A stretch of 54,144 nt of DNA, taken from NCBI RefSeq assembly GCF_004010195.1, contig NC_057718.1, forward strand, positions 2,738,996 through 2,793,139. The letters are read 5' to 3'. A program made the translations under genes and the position numbers. Below, piece by piece: positions 2,950-25,600 of the stretch; the first letter of the stretch is position 1; each line of letters starts with the position of its first letter. A model generated the notes under the pieces. That model saw nothing but the letters and a program-made list of their open reading frames with translations. It had not been told where the DNA came from and did no database searches. The stretch comes from Chiloscyllium plagiosum. Taxonomy: Eukaryota.

Positions 2950-3294
2950 GCATCACTAGTCCAGTTCTTCTCCTATCTCCCAGCCTGGAACGTGTCACTG
3001 AGGGTCACACTACCCGGTTACAGTGCACCATGAGGAACGCCGCAGTGACACATATCGATGTTCACTGGTACCAACTGTCCCCAGAGCAAATTATGGAGCG
3101 GGTTTTAACACATCCAGGAAATGGCTCCATACAATGGACCCCAGGATTCATGCAGCGATTCCAGCCTTCCAGAGACTCCTCCAGTAACAGCTTCACTCTG
3201 ACTATCACAAACGTGCAGCCCAGTGATACTGGGGTCTATTACTGCTCAGTGTTAGAAAACATCCATAGGACAGGAAGCCAGCTCAATATCACTA
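2950..3294 (+). CDS. V1: single-exon VJ-type Ig V domain; open frame, splice donor mutated
   Basis: Acceptor ttcttctttaaAG. Translation ITSPVLLLSPSLERVTEGHTTRLQC...VHWYQ...RFQPSRDSSSNSFTLTITNVQPSDTGVYYCSVLENIHRTGSQLNIT has both Cys, the Trp and DxGxYYC. The donor position reads GAAATT where paralogues have GTAAGT. Confidence 0.85.
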
Positions 3295-3569
3295 GAAATT
3301 ATAGTTTACATGATAATCTCCTCCAGCAATTACCTCTTGCCCAATGAATGAAGTTGAGATCAGTTTGTGATCAAGAAGATTGAGGAGGTGATGGAGAGTG
3401 ATCTTGGGGATAGATTCTCTGTGGTGAGGAAGCTGAGCTCAAGTTCAGTAATTTATTTAATTGTTTTGTAAGGTGCAGTTGTCACTGGCTGGGCCAGCAT
3501 TTATTGCCCACCATTAATTGCCCTTGAGAATATGGTGCTGAGCTACCTTCTTGAACCACTGCAGTGACC

Positions 3570-3970
3570 CATTGATTGCCATTCCTGGGTTTAGGTCGGG
3601 CTCCTACACAATCTATTAAGACCCTGCTAAACGGTTCTTCAAAAGCTGTGATCAGAATTAATGGAGCTTTCATTGAGAGTTGAGGATTCCCCAAGTCCTG
3701 ACTTGGACGAGCTTGTTTGGTAAAATTTAATACCTTTACAGAACCCTGACCAATAGAAATTCTCTGACTGCGTTTCTCATCTGTAAGTGACCTGCCACTG
3801 GAATTTGATGAGCTAGTTTGTAAAATTTCATTCTGGTCCTCAGAAGGAGTGACCACCTGATGGACCACTATCCATTGCTCATCGCCTGGTACTTGGGATG
3901 GACATTAGTTCCTCATTAATACTTTATCTTTCAAACAATAACACTCAGAGACTGTTTCTCATTCCAGTTC
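3570..3970 (-). mobile_element. Gypsy integrase fragment
   Basis: KAPLILITAFEEPFSRVLIDCVGARPKPRNGNQ resembles the start of the integrase core of vertebrate Gypsy elements. Confidence 0.75.
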
Positions 3971-4472
3971 TGAAGATAAAAACAGAAATAGCTGGAAAAT
4001 CTCAACAAATCTGGCAGCATCTATGCAGATAAATCAGAATTTTTATTATGCGTCCAGTGACACTTGTATAGAACTAATGGCAACAAGGAAAATGATGGTT
4101 TTTATTCAGAAAATGGGGTGTGGAGGAGGGTGAGGATGAATGATAGATGGAGATAGAGCCCAGTGTGAGAGAAAAACTGTTGGACATACAAAACAGTGGG
4201 TAATGGTCTGTCTGGGGGAGTGAGCAGCTGCTGACGGGGGCAGTTAGTGGCTGACAATGGGTATTATGTGGTAGCTGACTGTGTAATGATCAGGCCTGGT
4301 GTGTGGGGGAGGGGGAAAGCAAGGGGAAAGTGCTCAGTCTCTAAAATTGTTGAACTCAATATTAATTCCAGAAGGCTGCAGGATAACCAAGTGAAAAATG
4401 AGGTGCTGTTGTTCCAGCTTGCTCTGAGATTTACAAGAGAATTGCAGCAAGACTGAGACAGAGATATTGGCC

Positions 4473-4796
4473 AGGGAACACAATGGTGTGTTGGAGTAGC
4501 AAGTAACTGGGAGGTTCAGCCCTTTTTTGCGGACAGAATGCAGGTATTCTGCAAATGGGTCACGCAGACTGTGTTTCATTTCCTAAATGAAGAGAACCCC
4601 ACATTGTGAGCAGCAAATACAGTTTGTCTCATCAAGGGAACACAATGGTGTGTTGGAGTAGCAAGTAACTGGGAGGTTCAGCCCTTTTTTGCGGACAGAA
4701 TGCAGGTATTCTGCAAATGGGTCACCCAGACTGTGTTTCATTTCCTAAATGAAGAGAACCCCACATTGTGAGCAGCAAACACAGTTTGTCTCATCA
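4473..4796. repeat. Direct tandem duplication, 2 x 162 bp
   Basis: agggaacacaatgg...gtttgtctcatca starts at 4473 and again at 4635; the copies are near-identical. Confidence 0.9.
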
Positions 4797-4799
4797 CAG

Positions 4800-5150
4800 A
4801 ATACTCAGAGGCCTGGATAGAGTGGATGTGGAGAAGATGTTTGTCGGAGAGAGTAGGATCTGGGGCACAGCCTTACAGTGAAAGGATGATCAATTACAGC
4901 TGAGATGAAGAGGAATTTCAGTCAAGAGGTGGTAAATCTATGGAACTCATTGCTGCAGAGAGCTGTAGAGACCAAGTCATTGAGCATATTTAAGACAGAG
5001 ATAGATAGGTTCTTATGAGCAAATGGATCAAGGGTTATGGGGAGAGAGAAGGAGAATGGGATTGAAACATATCAGCCATGATCGAATGGCAGAGCAGACC
5101 TGATGGGCTGAATGGCCTGATTCTGCTCCTATATCCTATGGCCTTATGAT
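4800..5150 (+). mobile_element. CR1 LINE 3' end
   Basis: Typical CR1 ORF2 C-terminal and 3'UTR sequence (gagatgaagaggaat..., tgggctgaatggcct...tatg tail). Confidence 0.75.
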
Positions 5151-5294
5151 CTATAGTGTCATGGTTAGTTTGAATAATTAACCCCACTGTCCATTCTGAC
5201 ACACTTCCTATCTGTCCTTTCTCATTAACTCTAAATTGGAGTTCTTCAGAAAGTTCAGATGAGTTTTAATTTATTCAAACGTTTTCTCTGAAAG

Positions 5295-5636
5295 GTGTAA
5301 GTGTCCCAGTCCTTCACCGATCTCCAATCTGGAACGTGTCACCGAGGGTCACACTGCCCGGTTACAGTGCACCATGAGGAACGCCACAGTGACAAACACC
5401 AACATTCATTGTGACCGTGAGAAGCCAAAAATAAGAAGGAGTGGGTTTTAACACGTGACATGAGGAACATCATACAATGGAGCTCAGGATTCACTGAGTG
5501 CTTCCAATCTTCTAGAGACCCCTCCAATAACAGCTTCATCCTGACCATCTTGAACATACAGCCCAGTGACACTGGGGTCAATACTGTAATGTGTGGGCAG
5601 ATATCAGTGGGAACGGAACCCAGCTAACTGTAACAT
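5295..5636 (+). pseudogene. V2: VJ-type V pseudo-exon
   Basis: Acceptor ttttctctgaaAG; homologous to V1. It has frameshifts, the conserved Trp codon is lost, and it ends YCNVWADISGNGTQLTVT with a degenerate donor. Confidence 0.85.
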
Positions 5637-6044
5637 GTGTCATGGAAATTAACTCGACTCACCTCAAATGCTAGCAAGAGCAAAGAAAAATTTTATTACA
5701 GGCCTTTGCAAAGGGACCCTCTGCACTTGACAAAATGCCTTATACAACGGGCACTTGAACATAATTTAGATACTCGTCTTATACTGTTTCTTATCACACT
5801 CTCAATGGCAAAGACTGGGAAAATTCAAGTTGTTATTTCTCATCCCCTGTTATTGGACATGACAGTTCTTCAGCTTTCACTGAATTTGACTATTGCAAGG
5901 TCAAGTTGAATGTTTACAAAGTTCAAACAGGGACAAGCTGGCTGCAAACTTCATCAAAGTATTGTTGACAAAGCACAGCATTAAATTTTAGAAAAACATT
6001 CTCTTTTAAATTTCACAGTAAATGTAAAATGTATTCATTTTCCA

Positions 6045-7630
6045 TTACATGTTTCCCCTTTTTGTCATTTTATGACAACAAGGACAACAACCAAAAAAAA
6101 GCCAGATTTTTAAAAAAAATACAGAGCCAGATAACTGAAAATCAGTGATCTTAACAGATCTCTGTGTTGTAAGGAGCACTTGAAATGGTCCCAGCCACCT
6201 TTTCACCTTCCAGTCTTTCCTCCTGAAGTCTTTCACCACTATCCAGTCTCCAGGTTCTAGATCATGCAGCTTCCCTCCTGCTGGTTGGGGTAATGCTGCT
6301 TTCACTTGATTCTGTATTTGAGATAAAAGTGTAGAGAGTTTTATACAGTAACACAACATCTCATCCTCACAGTGGTCTGTTATCTGTCTTCCCTTAGGTC
6401 TTGGGCCAATTCCTGTGTTGGGCGGCCTACCAAACAAAATCCCAAACGGGCTAAGATTAGCTCTTCCTCTCCTTCTAGATCTCATATACATCACCACAAT
6501 CGAAAGTGCCTTTGTCCATGCCACACCTAGTTCCTCACAACATTTTGTCAATTTAATTTTTTTTTTAGGGTAGCAATTTTCTCTTTCCACTGCCCCACCA
6601 CTCGCTGGATGGTAGGCACAGTGCTATCTCATGTTTATCCTAAATAATCACTGATCTGTGCAGGGCATTATTGATATATGGTGCCCCATTGTCACTACTG
6701 AGATGCCCCATTTTGGGATTTTTTCAGTTAGCAAAGCCTTGGCTACTGCACAGGCGTCCTGTTTAGACATGGGGATCACTTCCACACATTTGGAAAATAT
6801 ATCAATTATTACTAGACAATACCCTTTCCCTTCGCTAGGTGTTATTTCAATAAAATCAATCTGTAAATGATAAAAGGGTCTTTGGGGTTGGGGGTGTGTT
6901 GCCTGACTCATCTGTATTCCCCTTCCCACATTAATAGTGGCACAGATAATACATCATTCACAATACTTCTGGGAGTAATGAGTAAATCCCATAGTGTACC
7001 AGTCTGCTGAAATGCTTCAGTACTCCCCCCTTTTGACACATGGTCCTTATCGTGTGTCAGTTTGGCATAGAATGGAAGTAATGATCGTGGTAGACAGAGT
7101 TTACCATTGGGGCCACACCATACTCCTTCCCTCACACTGCATCCTGCTTCCGTCCACTCACGCTTTTCTTCTGGCGAGGCCTGTGACTGTAACTCCTGTA
7201 CATCTGCTGTTGGGGATACAAATTTTTGTCATACACATGTCAATCTGCTCACTTGGCAGCTGCTGGGCTGCCATTCCTGCTGCTGAATCTGACCACACAT
7301 TAGAATAATTATTTTTTGTGTGGGCTTCACATTTACACATCGAAATTGATTTCGGCAACAGGACCACTTCCAGGAGATCAGAAATCATGCCACGGTATAT
7401 GATGGGCTTTCTGGTAGAGGTTAAGAAGCCCCTGTGTTTCCACTGGGTTCCAAAATCATGTACAACCCTGCATGCATATCTGCTATTGGTGTAAATATTC
7501 ACTGTCCTTCCCTCAGCCAATGTACATGCCTCAGTCAAGGCAATAAACTCCGCTGCTTGTGCTGACAGATGAGAAGAGAGTGATCCCACTTTGACTACTT
7601 CATGGGTAGTCACTACAGCATATTCAACAC
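6045..7630 (-). mobile_element. Endogenous retrovirus (class I-like) pol remnant: RNase H + integrase
   Basis: RNase H: SAQAAEFIALTEAC...VNIYTNSRYA. Integrase: QIDFIEI...YCLVIIDIFSKCVEV, SPFGILFGRP, WLGPFQVLLTT. Frameshifted. Confidence 0.85.
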
Positions 7631-9331
7631 AGATAAATCCTGTTTACCTGAAAATAATCTGATACAGTAACCATTTCCACATGGATTTATTGGAGAGGAG
7701 AATGGGGGTAAAGAGTAAGCAGAGAGCTCAATATAAACATAGAACAATTCTCGGCTTTTACTCACAGATAGAATAAACTGCTTCTCCTCTTGGACCAGTT
7801 CCTCAATCTCAAACTCTTTAGAGTCTCTCTGTCTTTCCGCTTCTCTATCTCATTTGCTCTCAGTGCTGTATTTAACATTCTCCTGTCTCTGTCTGGTTTT
7901 GTTTTGTTCATTCTTGGGACATGGCCATCACTGGCCTGGCTGGTACTTGTTGTCCATCTCGAATGTCCCTTGAGAAGAAATGTCTTCTCTGCCATTGGAC
8001 ACAGCTGAGGCCAAAACATTGAAAGTCTTCAAGGATATACTTCTGAGAGGTAAAGGTTCAAAGGGTAAGGGAAGAACATGGGAACAATAGACTGAGTTGG
8101 ATGATCAGCCATGATTATGTTGAAATGCGGTATCCCTGTAATAGTCAACCCCATAAATTTAAACTTAAAAAGTAGTCAAAAAATGTAACTATTATTTGAG
8201 TATATCCGGTATGTGTAGACCTACATGCACTTTACAGTACTGGGCACTGGGATACAGTACGACAGCGCCATTCTACTGTGGCAGGCAGAATGGAGACAGT
8301 TATTTTGTTGATAAATATTCATTAATGGCCATAATTATTTTTTTTCCTTTATTTCATAAAGAAACCTGGTCATTAGTTGTCCATTTTTTGACTCATATTA
8401 AGCATGAATTGCATCCCCTCAAACACAATACTCATCTAAAAGTCGACCACCTATTTTCAGCTTAAAAAAAACTTAAATATTTTACCTTTATAACCACAAG
8501 TTATATACGGTATTTCTAAGTAAGGAGGGGAACCTGAAAGAGATGCTGTCCCATGTACCTGCTGCCTTTGTCCTTACAGATGGAGAGGCTGTGGGTTCAG
8601 AAGCTGCTGTTGGAGGAGTTTTGGTGAGTTACAGAATGGAATCTTGCTGATGGTACCCACTGTACATCAGTGTAAAAGGGAGTGAATGTTGAAGGTGCTG
8701 CCAATCAGGTGGGCTGCTTTCTTCTGGATGGCATGAAGCTTCTTGAGTGTTGTTGGAGCTGCACCCATCCAGGCAAGTTGTTCCATCATCCTCCTGATTT
8801 CTACTTTGTCGATAGATGGAAGGCAGGCTGTGGGAGGCAGAGTATGAGCTACTCATCTCGACTTGCTCTTGTAGCCACAGTATTTATTACACCGCTCCAG
8901 TTAACGGACAGGTTGGTGTGGACGCCCAGGTTGTGGTTCATCAGAGAATTGTCTCCCATTTTTCTGAGGGGATGTGGGCATCACTGACAAGGCCAGCATT
9001 TGTTCTTCATCCCTTATTGCCCTCAAACTGTGTCACTTCACTGTTTATTCCAGATGGCAGTAAGAACAATCACATCTCTGTGATTCACATGTTGGCCAGA
9101 CCAGATAAGGATGGTAGATTTCCTTCCCTGAAGGACATTAGTGAACCAGATGGGTTTTACAAGAATTGATGGGAACATCAGTGATATGTTTCCAGCTCTA
9201 AGTTAGCCTGGAATTGTTGTGTATGATTGTGTTATGAGTCATTTGTGAGCAAATTGAATAAAGAAGCAAACAGTTGGTGGCTTGCTTGGAGATGCTGTTG
9301 TCCATGAGAGGTCTGGGTGGTATAAGGGATC

Positions 9332-9360
9332 CTGATGAAGGGCTTTTGCCCGAAACGTCG
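9332..9360 (+). ncRNA. Minimal hammerhead ribozyme motif in a solo Penelope terminal repeat
   Basis: CTGATGA-a-gggc-tttt-gccc-GAAA-C-GTC, core intact. Confidence 0.7.
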
Positions 9361-9819
9361 ATTTTGCTGCTCGTCGGATGCTGCCTGAATTGCTGTGCTC
9401 TTCCAGCACCACTGATCCAGAATCCATGACTCTGTAATTGTCTAACGCTATGTTCACGTAGTGAAGGGTTCGGTGCCAAGGCTGCACACAGGACCTCAAC
9501 ATTACTCCATCAACCTGTATTTATCTTTCATTTGATAGTTTAACAGAATACAAAGCGATCAGTTTGTTCAAAACTTGTTGTATTCCGTCGACATTCACTC
9601 TCCTGAGTCAGTTCCACATTAAAACTGGATCTCTTTCTCAACATCATTTAAACTAAAGGTTAAACTGGGCTCCAGTGCAACTCTTGCAGCTCCTGTTCTG
9701 CTCAATGACACTCCCATCTCCACCTCCGATGTCCTTGTTCTGAGCTGAACCCTTCCTCACCCCCACACTGGTTACTCCCTTTCTTATGACCCTTTCTTAG
9801 TCCAAGAGACACAGAGAGA

Positions 9820-10225
9820 GGAACATAGGTACAGGAGTACACCATTCCGCCCATCATGCCTGCTCCACCATTCAATTAAACGATGGATGATCTGATATTA
9901 ATCTCAACTCTACATTCCTATATATCCCTGTTCACCTTTCACCCCCCGAGTCATCAAGAATCTTCCTCCCTCGGCCTTAAAAACATTTCAAGATTCTGCA
10001 TCCACTGCCTTTTGATGAAGAGAATTCCAAAGACTCACAACCCACTGAGAAAAAGCATTTCCTCATCTCTGTCTTCAACGTGCACTCCCTTATTTTTAAA
10101 GTCTGCCCCCTAGTTCTAGATTCTCCCTGAAGAGGAACTATCCTTGCCACTTCCACCCGGTTAAGTCCCCTCAGGATTTTACAGGTTTCAATGAAGGCCC
10201 TTCTGAGTCTAATGGGATCCAGAGT
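9820..10225 (-). mobile_element. CR1 LINE 3' end directly upstream of truncated V3
   Basis: Translates RLRRAFIETCKILRGLNRVEV...GESRTRGQTLKIR (CR1 ORF2 C-terminus). Confidence 0.8.
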
Positions 10226-10272
10226 GAACACATCTGGAGGAAGGGTTTGCAGCTCGAGGAAGTTTGGAATGA

Positions 10273-10558
10273 ATTGAGGAGCTGGAGTGTGCCATGTACA
10301 ATGCCAGTGTGATTGACACTGATGTCCACTGGCACTACCAGCGACCTGGCAGCAACAGGGAGTGGGTGATAAGCCAATTTGTGAATGGCACCCTCACCAA
10401 GGCCCAGGGTTTCCACGATCGGGTTCAGCTTTCCAGGAATGTCAGCAGGAACAGTTACATTCTGAGCCTTGTGAATGTGACTCTCAATGATGCTGCTGTG
10501 TACAGCTGCAGTGTGTGGAGCTACATCTATGGAGCAGGGAGCCAGCCCAATGTAACTG
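10273..10558 (+). pseudogene. V3: second-subtype VJ-type V exon, 5'-truncated, glycosylation-rich
   Basis: ELECAMYNASVIDTDVHWHYQRPG...DAAVYSCSVWSYIYGAGSQPNVT followed by an intact phase-1 donor GTAAGT at 10559. The A strand and acceptor are missing, and there is an in-frame TGA at 10270-10272. Confidence 0.85.
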
Positions 10559-10984
10559 GTAAGTCAATGGGAGGGAACACTGGTGTGACCAGGGGAGGGA
10601 GCACCTGGCTGCTGTGCTTCATCAGTGGAAGGGCAGAATGGCCATCAAGACCAGGTTGGATGGGGAGAGGCTTGGGGGGGGGGGGAATTTACACAGTGTT
10701 GTGCCCCCATGTAGCTGCTTCCCTTGTCCTTCTAGATGGAGGAGATCGTGGATTTGGAAGGTGTGCCTGAGGATCTCTGATGAATGTCTGCAGTATATCG
10801 TGTAGATAGTGCACAGCAGGGAGTCAGTGGTGGAGGGAGTAGATGGTTGTGGATGTGTTGACAGTCAAGTGGGCTGCTTTATCCTGGATGGTGTAAAGCT
10901 TCTTAAGTGTTGTTGGAGCTGCACCTATCCAGGCAAGTGGGGAATATTCCATCACACTCCGAACTTGTGCTTTGTAGGTAGTGG

Positions 10985-12865
10985 GAGAAAGTGAGGACTA
11001 CAGGTGCTGAAGATCAGAGTCAGCATGTGGTGCTGGAAAAGCACAGCAGGTCAGGCAGCATCTGAAGAGTAGGAGTAGGGAAAACGACATTTCGGGCAAG
11101 AGCCCTTCATCAGGAATGAGGCTGTGAGCCGAGGGGGTGGAGAGATAAATGGGAGGGGTGTGGGTCTGGGGAAAGTTAGCTGAGAGTGCGATAGTAGGAT
11201 GGAGGAGGGGGTAATAGTGATAAGTCAGCGGGGTGGGTGGAGCAGATAGGTGGGAAGGAAGATGGACAAGTAGGAAAGGTCATGAGGGCAGTGCCGATTT
11301 GGAAGCTTGGAATAAGGATAAGGTGGGGTAAGGGGAAATGAGGAGGAAATGAGTCCCTATGCACTTCTATCCGCCATGATGAATGCCTCCAAGCCCTCTG
11401 TTTCTTCCTCTCCTAGCGCCAGTCCTCCTCTACTGATGCTTTCATTCGTTTGGCTGAACTGGTTCTCACCCTCAATAATTTCTCCTTTGAATCCTCCCAC
11501 TTCCTCCAGATGAAGGGGGACCCATGGGCACCAGCATGGGAACCAGCTATGCCTGTCTCTTTGTCAGTTACGTGGAACAGTCCATCGTCCACAGTTAGAC
11601 CTTCACCATTCCCCACCTTTTCCTCCACTACATCGATGACTGTATCGGCGCCACCTCATGCTCCAATAAGGAGGTTGAACAGTTCATCAGGTTCACTAAC
11701 ATATTCCACCCTGACTTTAAGTTTAACTGGACCATGTCAGACACCTCCTTCCACTTCCTGGACCTCTGCATCTCCATTTCCGGTTACCGACTCAACACGG
11801 ACATCTTTCACAAACCCACCGACTCCCACAGCTACCTGGACGACACCTCCTCCACCCTTCTGCCTGTAAAAATGCCATCCCTTATTCCAAATTTCTCTAC
11901 CTCTGCTGTATCTGCTCCCAGGAGGACCAATTCCACAACACAACACAACAAATGGCCACCTTCTTCAAAGATGGCAATTTCCTCTCCCATATGGTCAAAG
12001 ATGCCCTCCAACGCATCTCATCCACTTCCAGAACTTCCGCTCTCGCACCACACCCTTCCAACCACAACAAGGACAAAAGCCCACTGGTCCTCAACTTCCA
12101 TCCCACCAACGTCCGTATACATTACATCATTCTCTGCCATTTTCGCCATCTACAAATGGACACCACCACCAGGGATATATTTCCCACTCCACTCCTGATC
12201 ACTTTCCGTAAAGACCATTCTCTCTGCAACTCTCTTGTCAGGTTCACACCTCCAACCATCCCATCCACAAATGTCATTTACTGTATCCATTGTTCCTGAT
12301 GCAATCTACTCTACATTGTGGAGACAGGATGCTTACTTAAGAACACTTCAGAGAACATCTCTGGTACATCCGCACCAACCAACCCCACTGCCCCATGGCT
12401 AAACAACTCAACTCCCCTTCCCACTCCGCCAAGGACATGCAGGTCCTGGGCTTCCTTCATCGCCACTCCTTTACCACCTGACACATGGAGAAAGAATGCC
12501 TCATCTTCTGCCATGGGACCCTCCAACCCAAGGCATCAATGTGGGCTGTTCCAGTTTCCTCATTTCCACTCCTCCCACCAATCCCAGTTCATACCTTCCA
12601 ACTCGGCACTGGCCTCAAAGCCTCTATTACCTGTCAAACTTCCTTCCCACTTATCCACTCCACCCTCCTCTCCAACCTATCACATTACCCTCACCTCCAC
12701 CCACCTATCAAACTCTCAGCTACTTTCCCTGTAGCTCCAACCCCTCCCATTTATCTCTCCACCCCTGCCTAATTCCTGATTGAAGGGCTCTTGCCCGAAA
12801 CATCGATTCTCCTGCTTCTTGGATGCTGCCTGACCTGTTGTGCTTTTGCAACACCACACTTTCGA
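10985..12865 (+). mobile_element. Penelope-like element (RT + GIY-YIG remnant) with inverted 5' terminal repeat
   Basis: ELVLTLNNFSF, FLHYIDD, HKPTDSHSYLD and TNVIYCIHC motifs. About 10985-11350 is an inverted copy of the 3' repeat at about 12560-12865. Confidence 0.9.
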
Positions 12866-12996
12866 CCATTATAGATAGTGGATAGGCTTTGGGGAGTTAC
12901 TGTCCTGAGGAGCTCAAAAGTAATGTTGTTGACAATCATGAACTTTGTTCAGACTGAAGCGACTAACTACAAAAGTAACATTCTGATATTTTACAG

Positions 12997-13147
12997 CAGA
13001 ATCTTCCCATGGTATTCCCCGGACTTCAGATCCCATTTTAATCATTGGCACCATTCTGGGCTTCGCTGTCTTGATCTGCATTGTCCTGTTCACATTTTTC
13101 CTTCGGAAACAAAAGCTGTGTTCATCAGTGAAGGACTCCACACAAGG
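12997..13147 (+). CDS. Stalk + transmembrane exon of the + strand receptor
   Basis: Acceptor attttaCAG(CAG), phase 1. Translation (A)ESSHGIPRTSD-PILIIGTILGFAVLICIVLFTFFL-RKQK-LCSSVKDSTQ is an uncharged hydrophobic stretch followed by a basic stop-transfer. Donor GTAAAT at 13148. Confidence 0.85.
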
Positions 13148-13223
13148 GTAAATCCCATTTCATCTTGGGTTTGATTCTGCATTGCACTGATATTGTTTTC
13201 AACATTGGGGTGATTGTTTTTAG

Positions 13224-13268
13224 TGAGTGCTGATATTCCCACTGCAGTGTACAGATCTATTGTAAATG
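13224..13268 (+). CDS. Candidate small cytoplasmic exon
   Basis: ttgttttTAG...GTGGGT, 45 nt. Read in phase 1 it gives SADIPTAVYRSIVN and fits the 17536 exon, but it does not match the phase-2 end of the TM exon. Confidence 0.35.
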
Positions 13269-13397
13269 GTGGGTCAATGACTGTCAAGACAATCCTACAC
13301 ATCCAGGTGCCCAATCACTGCCAGTTTCCTCTATCTCTGGTATCACACATCCTCCAGTACCAGGCCACAGTCAGAAAGTTTTGAATGGCTCAAATGT

Positions 13398-13748
13398 GGG
13401 TGGCACTGTGACTCAGTGATTAGTACTTCTGCATCACAGCGCCAGGGACCTAAGTTGATTCTCGCCTCGAGTGGCCGTCTATGTGGAGTTTGCATATTCA
13501 CCTGATGGCGTCACGGGTTCCCTCTAGGTGCTCCGGTTTCCTCCCACAATCCAAAGGTGTGCAGGTTAGGTGAATTGGCCATGCTAAATTGCCCATAGTG
13601 GTGTGTCAGTTAGGTGCATTAGTCAGGAGTAACTGTAGAGTAATATACTTGGGTAATGGGTCTGGTTGGGTTACTCTTTGGAGGGTTGGCTTGGGCTTGT
13701 TAGACCAAATGGCCTCTTTCCACATTGTAGGGATTCTATGATTCTATA
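13398..13748 (+). mobile_element. tRNA-derived V-SINE (HE1-like)
   Basis: A/B-box-like head, central tgtggagtttgca...ggtttcctcccaca core, and a CR1-like tail. Confidence 0.8.
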
Positions 13749-14711
13749 ATTCATTAGACAACACATGCAAGACCCCCGGTAGATATGGGACCATTACCCA
13801 CAAAGCCCAGAATCAAGGTCTGCCTTAGAGCTGAGGGTCACAGGCAGCAAAGCACCTCCTGCTGGAAGACCAAGGGTGTGTCAGACCACTCAACCCAACA
13901 GTCCATGCTGGCCTTTCACCTCCACATCAAATTCACTTCCACACAGCCAAAATCTAATTTCCCTTTCCTGCTCCCCCATCCATTTAATTCCCTTTATCCT
14001 CACACCCCTCTCCAATTGAATCCTGAATGTAGACATGTTTTTTGATTCATTCATGGCTTGAGGCTGTCACTGGCCAGGCCAGCACTTAAGACCCATACTT
14101 AATTGCCGAGAGGATAGTTAAGAGTCAGTCACATAGCTGTGCGTCTGCAGGCACATGTAGTCCATAATTATCGCAATATTTGGCTAGTATTTCTCTCTGT
14201 TCCAAACTTCCCTTTTGCACTGTCAGATTCCTGATGTGATTAATAAGCTAATGGTTAGAGCAGGTCAGTTGTCTGATGAACACAATTGATGATGAAAGGT
14301 CAACAGAATGAAGGTGGTAGGTTCTCCCTGGGCTTTTAGCTGCAGCTTGAACTGCCCCTCAGGGCAGCAATGCCGTAAAGAGCGACCCCGAAAATGGATG
14401 GACCTTCAAACACAGAAACAGCCTCCTGTAGTCCACCAGCCAACAGAGACAGATCTTTTGACATCTGTTATACCCCTTTCAGAGCCATTCTTTATTGAAT
14501 ATCTTTTGAAAATCCAAGTACAACACATTGCTAGTTCTGTCAATCCATTCTGGTGGGACTTCCTGTAAAAATCTGTAATGATTTAGTCAGACACGATTTT
14601 CCTTTCATGAAGCCATGTGGACTCGATTTGATTAGACTCTGCTTGATCAGATTAAATCACAAAAGGTTCATGCATTCTGTAGCCAGATGGTGGGACAGAA
14701 AGCAAGGTCGG

Positions 14712-17362
14712 AAAAAGTGAGGACTGCAGATGCTGCACATCAGAGTCGAAGAATGTGGTGCTGGAAAAGCACAGCAGGTCAGTCAGCATCCGAGGAGCAG
14801 GAGAATTGTCATTTTGGGCATCAGCCCTTCATCAGTAATGAGGCTTATGGGCCAAGAGGACTGAGCGATAAATGGGAGGGAGTCGGGGTGGAGGGAATGG
14901 AGCAGGGAATGCAATAGGTAGATGAAGGTGGGGGTGAAAGTGACGGAGATTGAAGCAGATAGTTGGGAAGGAAGATGAACAGGTAGGACCATTCAAGAGA
15001 GTGGTGCCGAACTGGAAGGTTGGGACTGAGATAAGGTCNNNNNNNNNNNNNNNNNNNNNNNNNNNNNNNNNNNNNNNNNNNNNNNNNNNNNNNNNNNNNN
15101 NNNNNNNNNNNNNNNNNNNNNNNNNNNNNNNNNNNNNNNNNNNNNNNNNNNNNNNNNNNNNNNNNNNNNNNNNNNNNNNNNNNNNNNNNNNNNNNNNNNN
15201 NNNNNNNNNNNNNNNNNNNNNNNNNNNNNNNNNNNNNNNNNNNNNNNNNNNNNNNNNNNNNNNNNNNNNNNNNNNNNNNNNNNNNNNNNNNNNNNNNNNN
15301 NNNNNNNNNNNNNNNNNNNNNNNNNNNNNNNNNNNNNNNNNNNNNNNNNNNNNNNNNNNNNNNNNNNNNNNNNNNNNNNNNNNNNNNNNNNNNNNNNNNN
15401 NNNNNNNNNNNNNNNNNNNNNNNNNNNNNNNNNNNNNNNNNNNNNNNNNNNNNNNNNNNNNNNNNNNNNNNNNNNNNNNNNNNNNNNNNNNNNNNNNNNN
15501 NNNNNNNNNNNNNNNNNNNNNNNNNNNNNNNNNNNNNNGTTGCAGCAGTCACAAACCTGACTGCCATGGTCAACCTATCGTCTCAGCCTGCTCCTGAATC
15601 ACTGAGCTTGTCTTTGCATACCTTGACACCGTCCCACTCCCCCTTAGTCCAGGAACCCGCCACCTACATTTGGGACATGACCCATGTCTTCCACCTCCTC
15701 CACGATTTTCATTTCCCCAGCCCCCAACACCTCATCTTCACCACGGACATCCAGTAGCTATACACATCCATCTGACCTGACAAAGGCCTACCCGCCCTCC
15801 ATTTCTTCCTCTCACACTGACCCAACTAGCCCCCTTCCACTGACATGCTCATCTGATTGGCTGAACTGGTCGTCACCCTCAACAACTTCTCCTTCCAATC
15901 CTCCCACTTCCTCCAAACCAAAGGGGCAGCCAGGGCACCCTCATGGGCCCCAGCTATGCCTACCTCTTCATCAGGCATGTGGAACAGTCCATTTTCCACA
16001 GCTACATCAGCACCATTACCCACTTTTTCCTCTGCTACATTGATGACTGCATCGATGCTATCTTGTTCTCCCATGAGAAGGTTGAGCAGTTCATCAACTT
16101 CACTAACACCTTCCCTCCTGACCTCAAGTTCACCTGGACCATCTCAGATACCTCCCTCTCCTTCCTGGGCCTCTCCATCTCCGTATTCAGTGACCAACTC
16201 AACAGCTACCTGGACTATTCCTCATCTGAACCTGCCTCCAGTAAAAACATTATTTCTTATTCCCAATTCCTCCACCTCTGCTGCATCAGCTCCCAGGACC
16301 AATTCCACCACAGAACACACCTGATGGCCTCCTTTTTCAAAGATGGAACTTCCCCTCCCACATGCCCTCCAGTGTTTCTCCTCCACTTCCCGCACCTCCG
16401 CATTTAAACCCCACCTCTCTGATCATAACACAGATAAAACATCCCTGGTCCTCACCTTCCACCCCACCAATCTTCAGATAAACTGCATCCTCCCCCATCA
16501 CATCCACCACCTACAAACAGACCTCACCACCAGGGACATATTTCCCTCCCCATCCCTAACAGTGCTTCGGAGAAACCATTTTCTCCATGACTCCCTTGCC
16601 AGATCCATGACCCCCACCAACCCCCACCCTCCCCTCCTGACACCTTCCCCTGCCATCATAGTAAGTGCAAAACCTGTGGCAAACCTCCCCCCTCACCTCT
16701 GTCCAAGGCCCCAAAGGATCTTTCCACATCTGAAAAACATTTACCTGTACTTCCACAAATGTCATCCACTGCATCTGTTGCACCTGATGTGGTCTCCTTG
16801 ACATTGGGGAGATAGGACATCAACTTATGGATCATTTAAGAGAACATCTCTAGGACACCTGCACTGTCCAACCTTACTGCCCTGTTGCTGAACACTTTAA
16901 CTCCCCCTCCCATTCCACCAAGGACATTCAGGTCCTGGGAATCATCCACCGGCAAACCCTAACCACCCGACACCTGAAGGAAGAATGCCTCATCTTCCCC
17001 ATTAGGACTTTCCAACCACACGGGATCAATGTGGATTTCACCAGTTTCCCCATTTGTCTTCCCCAACCTTATCCCAGTCCCAACCTTCCAACTAGGCTCC
17101 GCCCTCTTGAATGGTCCTACCTGTCCATCTTCCTTCCCAACTATCTGCTCCACCCTCCTCTCCAACCTATCATCTTCTCCCCCACCCTCATCTATCTATT
17201 GCGTTCCCCGCTCGCTTCCTCCCACCCCCACCCCCACTCGCTCCCATTTATCTTCCAGCCCCCTTGGCCCACCAACCTCATCCCTGATGAAGAGCTTTTG
17301 CTCAATTCTCCTGCTCCTCAGATGCTGCCTGACCAGCTGTGCTTTCCCAGCTCCACACTTTT
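14712..17362 (+). mobile_element. Second Penelope-like element with inverted 5' repeat, spanning the assembly gap
   Basis: TLNNFSF, MGPSYAYLF, YIDD and a GIY-YIG remnant. 14712-15038 is an inverted copy of the 3' repeat. Confidence 0.88.
15039..15538. other. Assembly gap (500 N)
   Basis: Run of N. Confidence 1.
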
Positions 17363-17535
17363 TGAGAAAGCCAGATACCAGTCTTTTCCATCTCCTTTGT
17401 TTAAAGCAATATCCTTTTCTGATTTTTCTCCCCAATCCAAAATAAAGACAATTAAAAAGATGTGGTCTTTATGGGGAAATGCTCTCAACAACATCCCAGC
17501 TACCCACCTGTGACATGTGATTATTTGTCTCACAG

Positions 17536-17609
17536 ACTCAGTGACAGCAGCTGGTAACCAGTGTCTCCCTGGAGCTGACAGAATCCCTCCTTCGACAGGA
17601 CACAGGCAG
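17536..17609 (+). CDS. Cytoplasmic exon A (phase 1 to 0)
   Basis: ttatttgtctcacAG / GTAAGC; (D)SVTAAGNQCLPGADRIPPSTGHRQ; phase-compatible with the next exon. Confidence 0.7.
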
Positions 17610-18176
17610 GTAAGCTTCACTGTTCTTCACTGTACATGTTCCTGGAACAGGGAGGAGCTGGTGTCATTGTCAATTTATGATTTCAAATCAATTTCTCCTG
17701 CACAGCCAACCTTTTATCTGAAACCCCTTGTTACATCGAACGGGGTTAAGCTGCTGGAAATGGAAACCAGCTATTTATGAACTGGTCACAAAATTTAAAA
17801 ATGTTTACAAACCATATTCAAGAAGCCATTTCCCTATCTTTTAGACACAGCATGACAGAACGCACATATCAGGTTTCTCTCCTTAACAAGAGTTCCTGTT
17901 TCGTACAAAGAAGTAGAATTCAGTTTTAGGAAAACAATGACATGTAGCTCTCCCAGTTAAAACTCACACCCTCGAATAAACCCCCCCTTTCACACATAGA
18001 GACTGGCATAGACAGATAAAAACATGGGCGTAATGAACAGTGGAAAGAGTGGGAAGACAGTTCAGAGTTCCCTATCCACAGGGTTTTCTGATTTGATTCT
18101 TGTGCTGCTCAGATGGTGTTTCTCAATCTTCCTTCTCCAGATGCTTTCACTTATTTACAGGAGGCAGAGGGGGAAC

Positions 18177-18441
18177 TGATTCACGCTGATAGCAGCTCCC
18201 TGAGTGATTCACACTGACACCATCTCCCTGACTGATTCACACTGACAGCAGCTCCCTGACTGATTCACACTGACACCATCTCCCTGACTGATTCACACTG
18301 ACAGCAGTTCCCTGACTGATTCACACTGACACCATCTCCCTGACTGATTCACACTGACACCATCTCCCTGACTGATTCACACTGACAGCAGCTCCCTGAC
18401 TGATTCACACTGACAGCAGCTCCCTGACTGATTCACACTGA
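18177..18441. repeat. 28-bp minisatellite, about 9.5 units, two unit variants
   Basis: ctgattcacactgac[agcag/accat]ctccctga repeated. Confidence 0.95.
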
Positions 18442-19280
18442 GCTTCTCACATTATTATTGCAAAGCAGAAGACTTTTGTTATAAATAACTAGTCACAGGT
18501 TCACAGAACACATGTTTTTGGTTAGAATTCCAGTATTACCTACCCTCCAGCCCCATCCTCTCCTTCCCACCCCAATTCCCTCACTCTCTCCACACTCCTG
18601 CTCTGTAAATCCTCTCCCCCTACTTCCCCAATGGGCAGCTGTGTAAACAACACTCACAGTGAGGATCAGGTTACTTGCTTTCAGAAAGTGCAGGAATCGC
18701 TCTACATTTCTTGGTTTCTAAACCTGTTAATTTTCCATTTCAGTTCACAGTCAAAAATACAAAACATTTCCACTCCTTGACAGCTCATGTCTCTCGAGAG
18801 AGACCAGGAGGACTGATCCCACATCTCTACATGATCTCTCAGACACCAATGAGGGGTTATTGGAGAGCAGCTTAGCATGGCTCATCTCCAACTATCCCTC
18901 ATGGTGACCAGTGACTGATCCTTCAGCAGGAAAACCAAATCACTCAAATTATCAAATGAGATGTACCCGTCCAACTTGTCTTGTGTAATTCATAATCAGG
19001 GTTAAGTTTGACCAGGATGTTCAGGTCCAAGTATTCCTGATTTTGTTCCTGATTTTCCCTCTGGGATCTACTTTTCTCTGAGAGCTCTATTCCTCTCATA
19101 TCCAGCTGTACTGTCAGCTGCCCACAGCTCTGATTCAGAAACTGTTTGACAAATCAGCCACTTTTTTGGAAATAGAAAGGTTTCAAGACTAATCCCTGAC
19201 TCTATCTAATCAGCATTCAGTCATCTCTCATTTCACAATGATTACTGAGTACAATATTTCTTGTTTCCTTCTAATTACAG

Positions 19281-19322
19281 AATGTGAAGGATTCTCCAGC
19301 AGATTCAGACTCCGCCTACATG
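19281..19322 (+). CDS. Cytoplasmic exon B, first half of ITAM (phase 0 to 0)
   Basis: ttgtttccttctaattacAG / GTAAAT; NVKDSPADSDSAYM. Confidence 0.82.
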
Positions 19323-20441
19323 GTAAATATCTTGCACTGCAATTAACATCTGGCTTTACAACATTCACCCTATTCCCAAAGTGTCCTGTTTCTGACTTTC
19401 CATTGGTCCCATCATCTGACTGACATTTCTATCCACCAATCATCATGAGTGGGAATAGGCTCAGTGCGAAGCAAACCAGAGTGTTCACCATGCTGGATTC
19501 CCAACTCAATTAATGAGATTTTCCTGTTCTCCACCAGAAGTTGAGCCCTCCTGGACCCTTCAAGTTCAAATCTCATCCTCTGCCACTCAGCCCCACGGCT
19601 ATCCCTTCTTCGATCATACCCAATCCCTGGTCTCCTCAGCCACTGCCAACCTCAGGAGCCAGCTACAATCATCACTGCATTCCATTATTCTCAGAAAGAA
19701 AATGTTTTTTCATTTACATCATTCCTCTCACAACCCCAGCATAGCTTGGGAGCCTTTACAATGACTGAAGAGTTTTGAAGTGTGGTCACTGTTATCAGAA
19801 AGAGAGGAACTGATTTAAACACAGCAACATCACTGGGAGAACAATGCTGCTTTAGAATATAAGAGCATAAGGAATAGGAGAAAGTATAAAGTTGACAGCT
19901 TCTTCAAGCTGCTCCACCATTCAATACAATCCTGGTGGATAATCTGCCCCAATTCCACTTTCCCAGCTGCTCCTCCTATCCCAGAAATTCTCAGAGAAAC
20001 CAAAGGTTTGTCCATTCCAACCTGAAATGCTCTCAGCGATGGAACATTGTCAACTCCTGCGGAGAGAATTCCACAGTTTCTTCCAAAAACATCATCTGTC
20101 CACCTGCTTGAGAAGACAGGGTTTCAGTTTGACATCTCATTGAAAGCCTGTCCTGCTGACAGTGCTGCACTGCCTCCGTACTGCACTGAGGGAGCAGCCT
20201 GGATGGTACGATCACATCCCTGGACTCGGCTTTCAATCGAAAAGCTCCAGTCTCAGAAACAAATGTTTTTCCACTGGGCCAACACAAATGAATGAAGGAG
20301 ACATGGATCTGGTTTCAGGGAGGGAAATCCCTTTTGCCCATAAGCAGTAAATATTGTTAGAATGTGAAATCATTCTAAATAAGCCATGATTTTGTCAACA
20401 TTATAGATCACAGGTTTTAACATATCTCTTTTTCCTGTTAG

Positions 20442-20484
20442 GCACTGCAGCATTGGGATCGCTCTATTTACAGTGAGCTTAAAG
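20442..20484 (+). CDS. Cytoplasmic exon C, second half of ITAM (phase 0 to 1)
   Basis: ctctttttcctgttAG / GTATGT; ALQHWDRSIYSELK. Confidence 0.85.
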
Positions 20485-22576
20485 GTATGTTTCTAGTTTT
20501 GCCTCCAGCAGGGTAGTTTACCAGCTGCAGCAATGTTCGTGCTGCCTCTGAGATCATGAGAATCTGGGTGCGGGGATTGTGTTATTCATGAGTCTAAGAG
20601 CTACTGTTATGTACAGCTACTGTAAAACTGGAGGAAACTCCTGTTATATGCAAGCATGACCTTCCTCAGGCTTTTCAATGTCAGGCCTAACATTAGTGAT
20701 TGGGTTACACAAAGCAAGATTATTTCTCATGCCTCATGTGATCAGATGCAAGATGGAGTCAGAGATCTTTGTACTCTCAGGTCACAGCTGTGATGCAGTG
20801 ATGATGTCATCACCATGAGGAATCATCATTCAGTAAAAAAGAGACCCTTCAGCCCATCGAGTCTGTTCCATCAATCATTACACTAAACCTCCACTAGTCC
20901 AAACTTCAACCACTACATTCACAGCCTTGAATATTATAACATTGCAGTTGCTTATCCAAGTTATTTCTGAAGTTTGAGGTTTCCCGCCTCAACTACCCTC
21001 CCAAGCAGTGAATTCCATATTCCCACTAATCTCTGGGTGAAAAGACCTTTCCTCAAATCCCCTCTAAACGTCCGGCTTTTCATAGATTCATGGAATCATA
21101 CAACACAGAAACAGACCCTTCGGTCCAACTCGTCCATGCTGATCATTTTCCCAAACTAAAATATTCCAAGTTGCATGTGTTTGGACATATCCAATGGAAC
21201 CTTTCCTGTTCATGTACCTATCCAAATGTCTTTTAAATGTTGCAATTGTACCTGCATCTCCCATTTCCTCTGGCATTTCATTCCACTTATGAACCACCCT
21301 CCATATGAATATATCGCTTCTCAGGTCCCTTTTAAATCTTGCTCCAGTCACCTTAAAAATGTGTGCCCTAGTTTTGCATCCCTTACCCACAACAAAAGAT
21401 CTTTGCTCTTCACCCTATCTATGTTCCTCCTAATTTTTAAGTTCACCCCTCAACCTCTTGAGCTCCAGTGAAAACAGTTCCAGCCTGTCCAACCTCTCCT
21501 TTTAACTGAGGACAAGCTCCCCAAGCTCCCTCTGTCCCCCTGAGCTTCCTCGTGTCCTGTCATTCATTGAGTCCTCCATGTCTCATACAGCTCCCCTGAC
21601 CCATTGACTGTGAGACTGAACACAACAACCGATGAAGTTGAATTAAAAATCCAGCCTCATGGTGACCACCGAAACCCAGTCGATAGTCATCAATAACTTC
21701 CCAGTTATTGAACGTATCTGTCAGAGATGAAAACCTGTAGGTTATACTTGGGAGGTCTATATGTGACTCCAGACCCACATCAATGTCATTGACTCTAAAC
21801 AACCCTCTGAAATGGCACTAACAAGGCAGTCAGTTCAAGAGGCAATTCGGGAATGGGTAGTGAATGCTGGCCCAGTCAGTGACATCCACATCCCATAAAC
21901 GAATAAAAAAAAACCATCACCCGACATGGTCTTGTGTTTATTGTAATCATTCTGGGGATGTGGGTGTGGTTGTGTCAGCTTTCATTGACCATTTCTAGTT
22001 GCCCTGGTGGTGGCATGAACTGAAAGTGGGCAGTGAGTGCAGTGTGATCACAGGCCATTATTGATCATGTCTGACACACACACACAAAAAAACATACACA
22101 CACACACACCTTGTGTTTTTTTTTATAGAATCCCTGCAGTGTGGAAACAGGGCCTTCGGCCCAGCAAGTCCATCCTGACACCCAAAACCAAAACCCAACC
22201 CTATTGTCCTATATTTACCCCTGACTAATGCACATCCCTACACATGATGAGTAATTTAGCATGGCCAATTCAACTAACCTGTACATGGGAGGAAAATGGA
22301 GCACCTGGAAGAAATCCAAGTAGACATAGGAAGAATGTACAAACTCCACACAGACAGTTGCCCTAGTTTGGAATTGAACCCTGTTCCCTTGCGCTGGTGT
22401 TCTGACCAACTGCAGCCTTGACTGACATTGTCTCTGGGATACATATATTCCCCACCAGCTGGTGAGACAAGGCTGGCAGCTTCCAGGCAGGAATCTCTGA
22501 GTTATCTCCTGGGTAAACCCATTACATGTGAAATTATCTTTTGGAAATTAATAATGTTTTTAATTTTATTTGACAG

Positions 22577-22602
22577 GGCCTAAAGCAACTCCTGAAACTT
22601 AA
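22577..22602 (+). CDS. Candidate terminal coding exon
   Basis: ttttaattttatttgacAG, phase 1: (G)PKATPET-stop. Confidence 0.6.
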
Positions 22603-25600
22603 ACTACAGAATCAATCCTTCTGTGCAATACCTGGGTCCTGGAACATAAGGATTATCAGATGCTGACTGCGGGGCATTATTCCCAGATTTTGCACACTCA
22701 TTGATAGAAATTGTAAATACTTGAGACCTCAGCACTGACCCTGTGACAATCTCTGATTCTTGCCCTGTCTGGCCTAATGTGACTCCAGAAGCACAGTTTA
22801 ATTTGATTAATGTATGTCTCCTCTCTGGGCACTTTGGAATGGCCAATAAATGCTGGCGAGCCATTAATGACAATATTCATGAACATGTGAAAGGTAGGCT
22901 TCACTAGTTACAGCCTGAAAATCAATCATTTATCATTGTTGTTTGTTGTTGTAAATCCAACAAGATAATCAACAAGATAATCCAACAAGATAATCAACGA
23001 GTCGATAATATTTTCACTTTCACAAAATCTTGGTGACTCTACCTGTCTGCATTGAGTTTTCAAAGTCTCTTGCTATAACAGCCTTGGGAATCAATTTGAA
23101 CAAAATGTTTGGTGAACTTCTTATTGTTTTCTACTGGCTTGGAAATTAAGTTGCAGGAGTTCCCATGTACCTGCTGCCCTTGACCTTCTAGATGGACATA
23201 GTTGTGAGTTTAGAAGATGCTTTCTGAGGACATTTGGTGAATTTCTGCAGTGCAGCTTGTCGAGGGTACACATTGCTGTTAATGAGTGTCAGTGGTGGAG
23301 GGAGGAGATGTTTGTATGTGTGGTGCCATTCAAGTGTTTGCTTTGTACTAGATGCTATCAAGTCTCTTTACTGTTGTTGGGATGTTCAAAGAAATGATTT
23401 GTGATGTACATCACATGGCCCACATTACAATGAGTGTCAGCTCAGTGGTTTGGACTGCTGTGTCAAAGCACCAGCAACCTAGGTTTGATTCCACTCTCAG
23501 GAACTTGTATGTGTGCAGTTTGCACATTCTCCCTATGGCTGCATGGGTTTGCTTTGGATGCTCTGGTTTCCTCCCACTGTCTAAAGACATGCAGATCAGG
23601 TGTATCAGTGTGTTAAATTACCCGTGGTGTCCAGACATAATCCTGTATTTCCCATGTTCTGGCCAGGTGGATGAGCCATGAGCCAGGTCATTTGATGCTC
23701 GAACCACTCACTGTGCAAAAAAAGTTGCCCCTCATGTCCTTTTTAAATCTTTCTCCTCTCACCCCAAAAACAGTCCTCCTAGTTTTGAACTCCCCTGTCC
23801 TCGGGAAAATATCTGAGCTATTCGCCTTATCTATGACACTCATGATTTAAAAGAAAACTCTACACAGTTACCCCTCAACCTCCAATGCTCCAGTGGAAAA
23901 AGTTTCAGCCTATTTTTATAACTCAATTCCTCCATTCCTGGCAAGATCCTGGAAATGGTTTCTGAACTCTTACATATTTAATAGTGTCCTTCTGATAGCA
24001 GGGTGACCAGAAGAGTCCCAGTTTGAGGGTTAGATGGGATGAGGGTAGAAGATGCAACAGGTAGATAACTGATCTATGGAGTGGAGACCTGTGACAAAGG
24101 CCTTCTTTCTTTTTTTTTAATTCATTCATGGGATGAGGATGTCATTGGCTGGGCCAGCATTTATTGCCCTTCCTTAATTGACCAGGGGCAGTTAAGAGTC
24201 AACCACATTGCTGTGGGTCTGGAGTCACATGTCGGCCAGACCAGGTAAGGATGGCAGTTTCATTCCCTGAAAGACATTAGTGAATCTGATGGGTTTTCCC
24301 AACAATCAACAGTGGATTCATGGTCATTGTGTGACTCTTAATTCCAGATTTTTGTTGAATTCGAATTTCACCGTCTGCCATGCTGGGATTCAAACCCAGG
24401 ACCCCCAGAACATGACCTGGGTCTCTGGACTAACAGTCCAGTAATAATACCACTAGGCCATCATCTCCCCATTTCAGCCTAACACCAACTATATGATTGC
24501 TTGCACTACACCTGATATGCTCCAAAAACTTGTGATTTCAAACAAACCTGTTGGACTATAGTCTAATGTTGTGTGACTTCTGACTATGTCCATCCCAGTC
24601 CAACACTAGCTCCTCCACATTATTGCTGGCTGAACAGCTTCTGAACATGAAAGGCTATAGCCAGAAGCCATCGGATCTCTGGAAATTGAGGTGGAGTCCT
24701 TTTCTCTGCAATAAAAGCTAACTAATGCCCAAAGAAAGCCAGTTTATTTTCCCTTACCAGCTGCTGCAAGCTGTTGGTTTTAAGCAGAATTTGTAAAACA
24801 GTCATTCTGTGTTTCCGACAAGGAAGTAGAAAACACCTGAAGAGAGAGAGAGAGAGAGAGAGATCAACAAGCAGCAAATCCTGATGAATAAAATGTACAT
24901 TAATTCACAGCCAAGGCAACACGGCTCTGCAGAAATAGTTTGAGCTGTTTTTAAAAATGCCTGAAACAAAGACCATCCCAGAGGGGGAAGGAAATCCCAT
25001 CAGAAGATGGAATGTGTTAGATTCTCAGAGTTCCTTCAATTTCTTGTCAATGAGGCTGATTCCAGAAAGTGAAACATTGATGGGAGATCTTCTGACCATA
25101 ATTCATATTCCAATTAGTAATTGTTCCAAATCCTGACATTGTAAACGTTATCTTTGCAAAATATTCATGCAGAGATTTTATCAGCTTTTTCCGTGTCTTT
25201 TACTGACTGAGAGGGAGAAACTGTGCAGCTGGTCCTCCTTGAAGATCTCTTCACTTTTTACCAAAAGAGAGGGATCTTTTCTCACTGTTTTTCGTCAGCT
25301 TGACAAGTTTGCTTCAGTTGTTCTCCTTAAATATCCAAACAGTTCCACATTCCGGCTTCTCACAGTGCGAGCATTTTTATGTCATCCTAATATAGGTTTC
25401 AGTTCAGTGTTTACTTTTTGCAACAGAACTTTCAAGGGTGGTTCTGATGTTCCCTTACATATTTCATGACTTTTTTTCAGCTGAAGAGTATACTCCCAGC
25501 TCTGTCTGCTCCTGCATACCCGATAGAATTGCACTTTTTACTAAAATTGTCTCCACTGCTCTTATTTCTCCATCCAATCTGAGTATCCTCACATCTGTCT

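What the first reader, a model, noticed from the sequence alone, without database searches (positions are those of the whole stretch)
2950..22602. Intact signalling exons downstream of damaged ectodomain exons; all V exons are phase 1-1 cassettes
Seen: V1 has lost its donor, V2 is frameshifted and V3 has lost its acceptor, yet the TM and ITAM exons have no stops and keep their splice sites. Every V exon with readable ends starts and finishes in phase 1. Inference: either the gene died recently, or leader/V exons upstream of this window splice over the dead cassettes to the TM exon. Phase symmetry would allow multi-V ectodomains or alternative V usage with one shared signalling tail.
Basis: inference. 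Interest (0 to 1): 0.7.

Follow-up and report, generated by a model that had tools for sequence, protein, structure and literature searches.

The report
Dead shark activating-receptor gene copy
This shark immune-receptor gene copy has all four antibody-like exons broken and has also lost the small exon that keeps its activation signal in reading frame, so it is likely an ordinary pseudogene and not a rescued receptor.

Summary
The V-exon damage is real and worse than reported, but the signalling half is not intact. The transmembrane exon ends in phase 2, not phase 1. The 44-nt phase 2-1 exon that follows it in paralogues (it carries a YENV motif) is deleted at 14160/14161, so TM joined to the next exon stops after 7 codons. 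None of 8 canonical exon combinations puts the ITAM in frame. Upstream of base 1 lies a fourth V exon, also frameshifted, and no leader before a scaffold gap. Clean-looking tail exons are expected by chance: 1.9 lesions expected, 1 seen. The gene belongs to a ~2.2-Mb cluster of tandem-VJ receptors with ITAM or ITIM tails in a bamboo shark (G000:C9). This scan already noted the family in neighbouring windows; my literature searches found no paper on it. Phase 1-1 is the family norm. The skip-the-dead-cassette idea fits other genes: one ITAM paralogue has a single ruined V exon and an otherwise intact 603-aa frame. Verdict: likely pseudogene, low interest.

The parts
2950..3294 (+). V1: germline-joined VJ exon (Va type), open frame, donor GT>GA, G>R in the GxG strand; weak cryptic phase-1 GT at 3304
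   Evidence: Pfam V-set E 2.8e-16
5295..5636 (+). V2: VJ exon (Vb type), three 1-bp deletions, W>C, true donor displaced and mutated
5637..7628 (-). 1,992-bp retrovirus-like pol fragment (RNase H and integrase pieces, broken) inserted at the V2 donor
10286..10558 (+). V3 remnant (Vc type): a ~0.94-kb deletion removed the acceptor and first ~25 codons; donor intact; no usable phase-1 acceptor upstream
12997..13147 (+). TM exon, 151 nt, phase 1-2, no charged residue inside the helix
14160..14161 (+). junction of a ~0.9-kb deletion that removed cytoplasmic exon C1 (44 nt, phase 2-1, YENV motif in paralogues)
15039..15538 (.). 500-N assembly gap; both flanks align to the C1-C2 intron of paralogues, downstream of C1
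17536..17609 (+). C2 exon, 74 nt, phase 1-0; a weak internal AG before 17582 is the only nearby acceptor found that would restore the ITAM frame
19281..19322 (+). C3 exon, phase 0-0, ends with the first ITAM tyrosine
20442..20484 (+). C4 exon, phase 0-1, rest of the ITAM (YSEL)
22577..22602 (+). C5 coding part (PKATPET-stop)
22845..22850 (+). AATAAA, likely polyadenylation signal

Best explanation
The window holds a broken copy of an activating (ITAM-tailed) member of a shark tandem-VJ receptor family, with all four V exons disabled and the frame-bridging first cytoplasmic exon deleted, so it is likely a non-functional pseudogene. Shown: the lesions, the exon phases, and the out-of-frame ITAM under every canonical splice. 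Inferred: the ancestral gene read leader-(V)n-Va-Vb-Vc-TM-C1-C5 like XP_043552676.1. It likely acted as the activating partner of the near-identical ITIM gene XP_043551185.1, which lies upstream on the other strand. It likely decayed stepwise, with V2 dying first and being skipped while the gene still worked. The remaining tail exons look clean because they are short mutational targets.
For: TM+C2 gives QGLSDSSW-stop; 0 of 8 canonical exon subsets give an ITAM; the intact paralogue without C1 in silico fails the same way. C1 is present in 3 of 3 other ITAM paralogues with this TM type. A C1-type YENV/YETV motif is present in 4 of 4 close ITAM proteins from four shark species. The upstream V0 (G000:C9:2730687-2731025) has a 7-bp deletion and Cys>His. 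No leader was found upstream (best nhmmer E 1.7; positive control 136 bits). Seven frame or splice lesions in 1,380 bp of V exons predict 1.9 in 374 bp of TM plus tail; 1 is seen, P(<=1)=0.44 and P(0)=0.15. Private changes: 8 of 156 tail-exon sites versus 162 of 2,402 intron sites, Fisher p=0.51. pN/pS is 0.62 for TM plus tail versus 0.59 for the V exons. No protein record with this gene's tail appeared among 71 and 26 candidates. Decay is common here: 45 of 83 V loci are damaged, and 1 of 4 ITAM genes of this TM type has all exons intact. Stepwise decay: window-only changes are 31/342 in V2, 22/338 in V0, 11/345 in V1, 4/271 in V3 and 4/151 in TM; V2 versus V1 p=0.001.
Against: The substitution tests are underpowered (9 changes in TM plus tail; neutrality not rejected, p=0.36, but mild constraint not excluded). 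The TM exon has only 1 private change against six paralogues, which could be constraint or gene conversion. The C1 deletion rests on one assembly: an independent DNA run covers the region but no listed contig bridges the junction. A weak cryptic acceptor inside C2 would restore the ITAM. A leader could lie beyond the 500-N scaffold gap 14.5 kb upstream of base 1.
Confidence: 0.9

Rival explanations
1. Rescue by splicing: a leader beyond the scaffold gap splices over the dead V exons to TM, and TM splices to a cryptic acceptor inside C2 (17582), which would give a membrane stub with an in-frame ITAM and little or no ectodomain.
For: Leader and TM are both phase 1. The cryptic join reads in frame through the ITAM. 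TM, C3 and C4 splice sites are canonical. The assembly has gaps upstream.
Against: The cryptic AG has two competing AGs within 25 nt, and the true C2 acceptor 46 nt upstream is intact. No leader was found. Tail exons are not detectably more conserved than introns. The TM has no charged residue to pair with an adaptor.
Confidence: 0.03
2. Assembly or allele effect: the lesions are partly assembly errors, or belong to a null haplotype while other animals carry a working allele.
For: The cluster is repetitive, with many gaps. One DNA run shows contigs with the paralogue-type letter at 10492. No contig bridging the C1 junction was listed.
Against: At least eight independent lesions of different kinds, including a 2-kb insertion and two ~0.9-kb deletions with no N at their junctions, plus excess point changes in V2. 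The variant contigs have 3-4 times the depth of unique bins, which points to paralogues. No record of an intact orthologue was found in the protein searches.
Confidence: 0.07

Closest known systems
Unnamed elasmobranch tandem-VJ receptor family (RefSeq models XP_043552676.1 ITAM; XP_043551185.1 ITIM; XP_060686741.1; XP_059504760-764.1)
   Same: Same Va-Vb-Vc-TM order, same TM exon, same ITAM exons (70-93% amino-acid identity per exon to the ITAM relatives), same cluster.
   Different: This copy has 0 of 4 intact V exons, no C1 exon and no detectable leader; no protein record of its tail was found.
CEACAM1/CEACAM3-type paired receptors (PMC5112662, passages read) and merohomogenised pairs (PMC3210942, passages read)
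   Same: Near-identical V-type ectodomains with opposite ITIM/ITAM tails; ITAM YxxL split by a phase-0 intron; a YxN motif upstream of the ITAM; pseudogenes in the cluster; pairs in opposite orientation.
   Different: Ectodomain is a chain of germline-joined VJ domains with a GxG strand, not CEACAM N/C2 domains. No homology to CEACAM was tested; ligand unknown.
Non-rearranging VJ genes UrIg/UrIg2 and NCR3 (PMC12227049, abstract and passages read; NCR3 features recalled)
   Same: Single-exon VJ domains without rearrangement.
   Different: UrIg2 has constant domains. NCR3 has one V domain and a charged TM (recalled). This family has several V domains, an uncharged TM and its own ITAM or ITIM tail.

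Membership tests
Elasmobranch tandem-VJ ITAM/ITIM receptor family (unnamed) | Germline-joined VJ exons, phase 1-1, in the order Va-Vb-Vc before the TM exon | tested here: met
Elasmobranch tandem-VJ ITAM/ITIM receptor family (unnamed) | Uncharged TM exon (phase 1-2) and ITAM split over two exons by a phase-0 intron | tested here: met
Functional ITAM member of that family | C1 bridge exon (44 nt, phase 2-1) placing the ITAM in frame | tested here: not met
   deleted at 14160/14161; 0 of 8 exon subsets give an ITAM
Functional ITAM member of that family | At least one intact V exon | tested here: not met
   0 of 4
Functional ITAM member of that family | Leader exon upstream on the same strand | tested here: inconclusive
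   none in 44.6 kb, but that stretch holds gaps of 523, 500 and 86 N
Functional ITAM member of that family | Spliced transcripts | tested here: inconclusive
   no raw RNA reads on exon bins in about 2% and 6% of two single-cell runs of one sample; no positive control
Paired activating/inhibitory receptors (CEACAM1/3-like logic) | Near-identical ectodomain shared with an oppositely signalling gene | tested here: met
   V1 is 95% identical in DNA to the ITIM gene's exon and groups with it at 100/99
Paired activating/inhibitory receptors (CEACAM1/3-like logic) | Opposite transcriptional orientation of the pair | tested here: inconclusive
   opposite in the assembly, but a 500-N scaffold gap lies between the two genes
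Paired activating/inhibitory receptors (CEACAM1/3-like logic) | Shared ligand and opposite signalling shown experimentally | not testable with these tools
   needs binding and signalling assays
Rearranging Ig/TCR loci | V segments ending in an RSS, with separate J segments | tested here: not met
   no CACAGTG heptamer at the 3' ends of V1-V3; the J-like strand lies inside the exon
NCR3/NKp30 | One V domain and a charged TM residue (definition recalled, paper not held) | tested here: not met
   four V exons; no charged residue in the helix
UrIg/UrIg2 | V domain followed by constant domains (PMC12227049 abstract and outline) | tested here: not met
   Vc is followed directly by TM in the paralogue proteins and loci

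The most novel reading that the evidence does not exclude
A leader hidden beyond the scaffold gap splices over four dead V exons to TM, and a cryptic acceptor in C2 restores the frame, turning a dead receptor into an ectodomain-less ITAM adaptor: a receptor gene reborn as a signalling subunit.
Probability: 0.03. Interest if true: 0.6.

Novelty: new member of a known kind. Interest (0 to 1): 0.15.

Why it matters
As a pseudogene it matters little: loss of members is expected in paired-receptor clusters. It is a useful warning that exon-by-exon 'no stop, good splice sites' does not show an intact tail, because one missing asymmetric exon breaks the frame. The better lead lies elsewhere in the cluster. 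Phase 1-1 V cassettes appear to die one at a time inside living genes (the ITAM gene at G000:C9:3274895-3339778), which would let these receptors change length and ligand face without losing signalling. The family itself, about 120 germline-joined VJ exons with paired tails, was not found in my paper searches.

Tried and rejected
C1 hidden in the N gap: rejected, both flanks align to the intron downstream of C1 and the deletion junction lies 880 bp before the gap. Alternative V segments of a rearranging locus: rejected, no RSS, and the fixed Va-Vb-Vc order recurs in paralogues. V exons further right in the window as donors: rejected, they are on the minus strand and damaged. Three unplaced V-bearing contigs as the missing upstream part: no support; one matches a different gene at 99%, the others match at 75-88% across the cluster. 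Sequencing runs: no RNA holder listed. Reads were laid on 10100-22300 only, so V1, V2, C5 and the 3' UTR were not tested. Run X21 gave 333 partial, repeat-derived reads and zero depth in the V3, TM, C2, C3 and C4 bins; X22 gave none; there was no positive control, so this is no evidence on expression. DNA run X1 covered 30 of 30 bins but no listed piece bridged the C1 junction. A DNA search with an intron repeat was uninformative. PDB hits were only generic antibody V domains. No tRNA genes. Paper searches for the family gave 0, 1, 45, 1, 0, 1 and 1 papers, none describing it by title or abstract start; subscription papers and supplements were not searched, and two cited NCR3 papers were not held. 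A search for a citation on Ig exon phase gave nothing relevant, so 'Ig-domain exons are generally phase 1-1' is recalled. The V2 codon counts used a start one base off and are approximate; one search used the right start.

Full report
Setting. The window is G000:C9:2738996-2793139. A search with V1 gave 151 matches; about 120 of the 150 listed lie on C9 between 2.02 and 4.26 Mb. The 81 protein relatives found (lengths 201-2000 only) come almost all from sharks and rays. Several are labelled Chiloscyllium plagiosum and sit on a contig of the same length as C9. Those read carry tandem V domains, often a TM segment, and either an ITAM tail or a two-tyrosine ITIM-type tail. I fetched 97 ten-kb stretches of the ~2.2-Mb cluster plus three small contigs, so cluster counts cover under half of it.

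Observation check, V exons. V1 (2950-3294) is open, but its donor reads GA where 4 of 4 aligned paralogues read GT. V2 (5295-5636) has three 1-bp deletions and W>C. A 1,992-bp insertion sits at its donor, and the displaced donor is itself mutated. The insertion holds broken RNase H and integrase pieces on the minus strand. V3 lost 930-945 bp, including the acceptor and about 25 codons; no upstream AG enters it in phase 1 without a stop. Phase 1-1 holds, but it is the family norm: 34 of 83 V-like loci pass an intactness test that requires it, 45 are damaged and 4 lost a core residue. That Ig-domain exons are generally phase 1-1 is recalled knowledge.

Observation check, tail. TM, C2, C3, C4 and C5 have no stops and canonical splice sites. 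The ITAM fits the D/ExxYxxL/Ix6-8YxxL/I pattern and the phase-0 split described in PMC5112662 (passages read). But TM is 151 nt and ends in phase 2, while C2 starts in phase 1. In paralogues a 44-nt phase 2-1 exon (C1) bridges them. Here window 13610-14164 aligns to the intron before C1 and 14161 onward aligns to the intron 16 nt after C1, a deletion of 898 bp in paralogue coordinates. Only the 3' flank of C1 is found in the window. TM+C2 reads QGLSDSSW-stop, and 0 of 8 canonical exon subsets give an ITAM. The intact paralogue fails identically when C1 is left out. A C1-type tyrosine motif is present in 4 of 4 close ITAM relatives, and in 9 of 14 stored ITAM-bearing relatives by a strict pattern. 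The one escape found is a weak AG inside C2 (17582), which would restore the frame.

Upstream. An exon V0 at G000:C9:2730687-2731025 (about 8.3 kb before base 1) has a 7-bp deletion and Cys>His. A leader profile built from 13 leader exons finds nothing in 2697300-2741900 (best E 1.7) while scoring a known leader at 136 bits. That stretch has gaps of 523, 500 and 86 N. The 500-N gap is the centre of a ~95% inverted repeat shared with an ITIM gene on the other strand (XP_043551185.1, 4 of 4 V exons intact, also without a detected leader). So a leader is neither found nor excluded, and the head-to-head orientation is not proven.

Are the tail exons conserved? Seven frame or splice lesions in 1,380 bp of V exons predict 1.9 in 374 bp of TM plus tail. 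P(0) is 0.15; one is seen, P(<=1)=0.44. Private substitutions are 8 of 156 sites in C2-C4 versus 162 of 2,402 in flanking introns (p=0.51). pN/pS is 0.62 in TM plus tail and 0.59 in the V exons; neither departs significantly from neutrality, and the counts are small. Against my reading, TM has only one private change. Window-only changes are uneven (V2 31/342, V0 22/338, V1 11/345, V3 4/271, TM 4/151). This suggests V2 died first and was skipped for a time, or that V3-TM was homogenised by gene conversion; both are inference.

The minus-strand ITAM gene at G000:C9:3274895-3339778 has two 1-bp deletions and a stop in Vc only. Its other 1,806 bp of exons and all their splice sites are intact, against 15.6 lesions expected at the Vc density, and skipping Vc gives a 603-aa frame with the ITAM. 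A partial V duplicate also lies in that gene, and no transcript was seen. The model XP_043551196.1 omits a frameshifted Vc. Stegostoma isoform models XP_059504761, 763 and 764 differ in V content. These are gene models whose RNA support I did not see.

Expression and independent DNA. Results were inconclusive (see Tried and rejected).

Comparison. The gene works, or worked, like the activating half of a paired-receptor system. V1 is 95% identical to the ITIM twin's exon and groups with it at 100/99 rather than with other ITAM genes. This pattern is described for CEACAM and KLR pairs (PMC5112662 and PMC3210942, passages read). It is not a rearranging Ig/TCR locus, NCR3 or UrIg by the features tested. 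Seven searches of the held library found no paper on the family; PMC7677710 (three passages seen) has no hit for ITAM or immunoglobulin superfamily. Earlier notes of this scan describe the same cluster and a similar dead-ectodomain case in shark CEACAMs.

Verdict. Observation partly confirmed; rescue not supported for this gene; likely a pseudogene (0.9). Interest 0.15.

Noticed in passing
G000:C9:3274895-3339778 (-), loci L045-L051: ITAM paralogue with three lesions confined to Vc; leader, four V exons, TM and tail intact, and skipping Vc gives a 603-aa ITAM receptor. The RefSeq model XP_043551197.1 covers only its 5' part. Best candidate for a live gene skipping a dead cassette.
   Followed up: partly
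G000:C9:3270000-3370000: A second opposite-strand ITAM/ITIM pair whose last Va exons are sisters (100/99). Only one leader lies between them, pointing to the ITAM gene, and again a 500-N gap (3343545-3344044) separates them. A Hemiscyllium record (P0031) links similar V domains to an ITIM tail, so tails may swap by inversion or the scaffolding may be wrong.
   Followed up: partly
G000:C9:3594074-3640303 (+): ITIM gene modelled as leader-V-TM-tail (XP_043551196.1), omitting a frameshifted Vc; a C. punctatum record of the same length and layout exists (XP_072436318.1).
   Followed up: partly
window 26325-51107 (-): Five damaged V exons and one leader-like exon (32874-32966) on the minus strand; relics of other family members.
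   Followed up: partly
window 5637-7628 (-): Broken retrovirus-like pol fragment (RNase H, integrase) at the V2 donor; no second copy in the fetched DNA.
   Followed up: partly
G000:C9:3803662-3803704: The intact ITAM gene XP_043552676.1 ends with a stop right after YSEL where paralogues read on into C5.
   Followed up: no
G000:C9:2638452-2641396, 3250490, 3665491: ITAM tail exons with no TM exon of this type found beside them; orphan tails or tails of other TM types.
   Followed up: no
window 18174-18441: Tandem repeat of a ~28-bp unit in the C2-C3 intron, shared with ITAM paralogues.
   Followed up: no
window 1-1600: Degenerate LTR-retrotransposon-like pol sequence, read by eye only.
   Followed up: no
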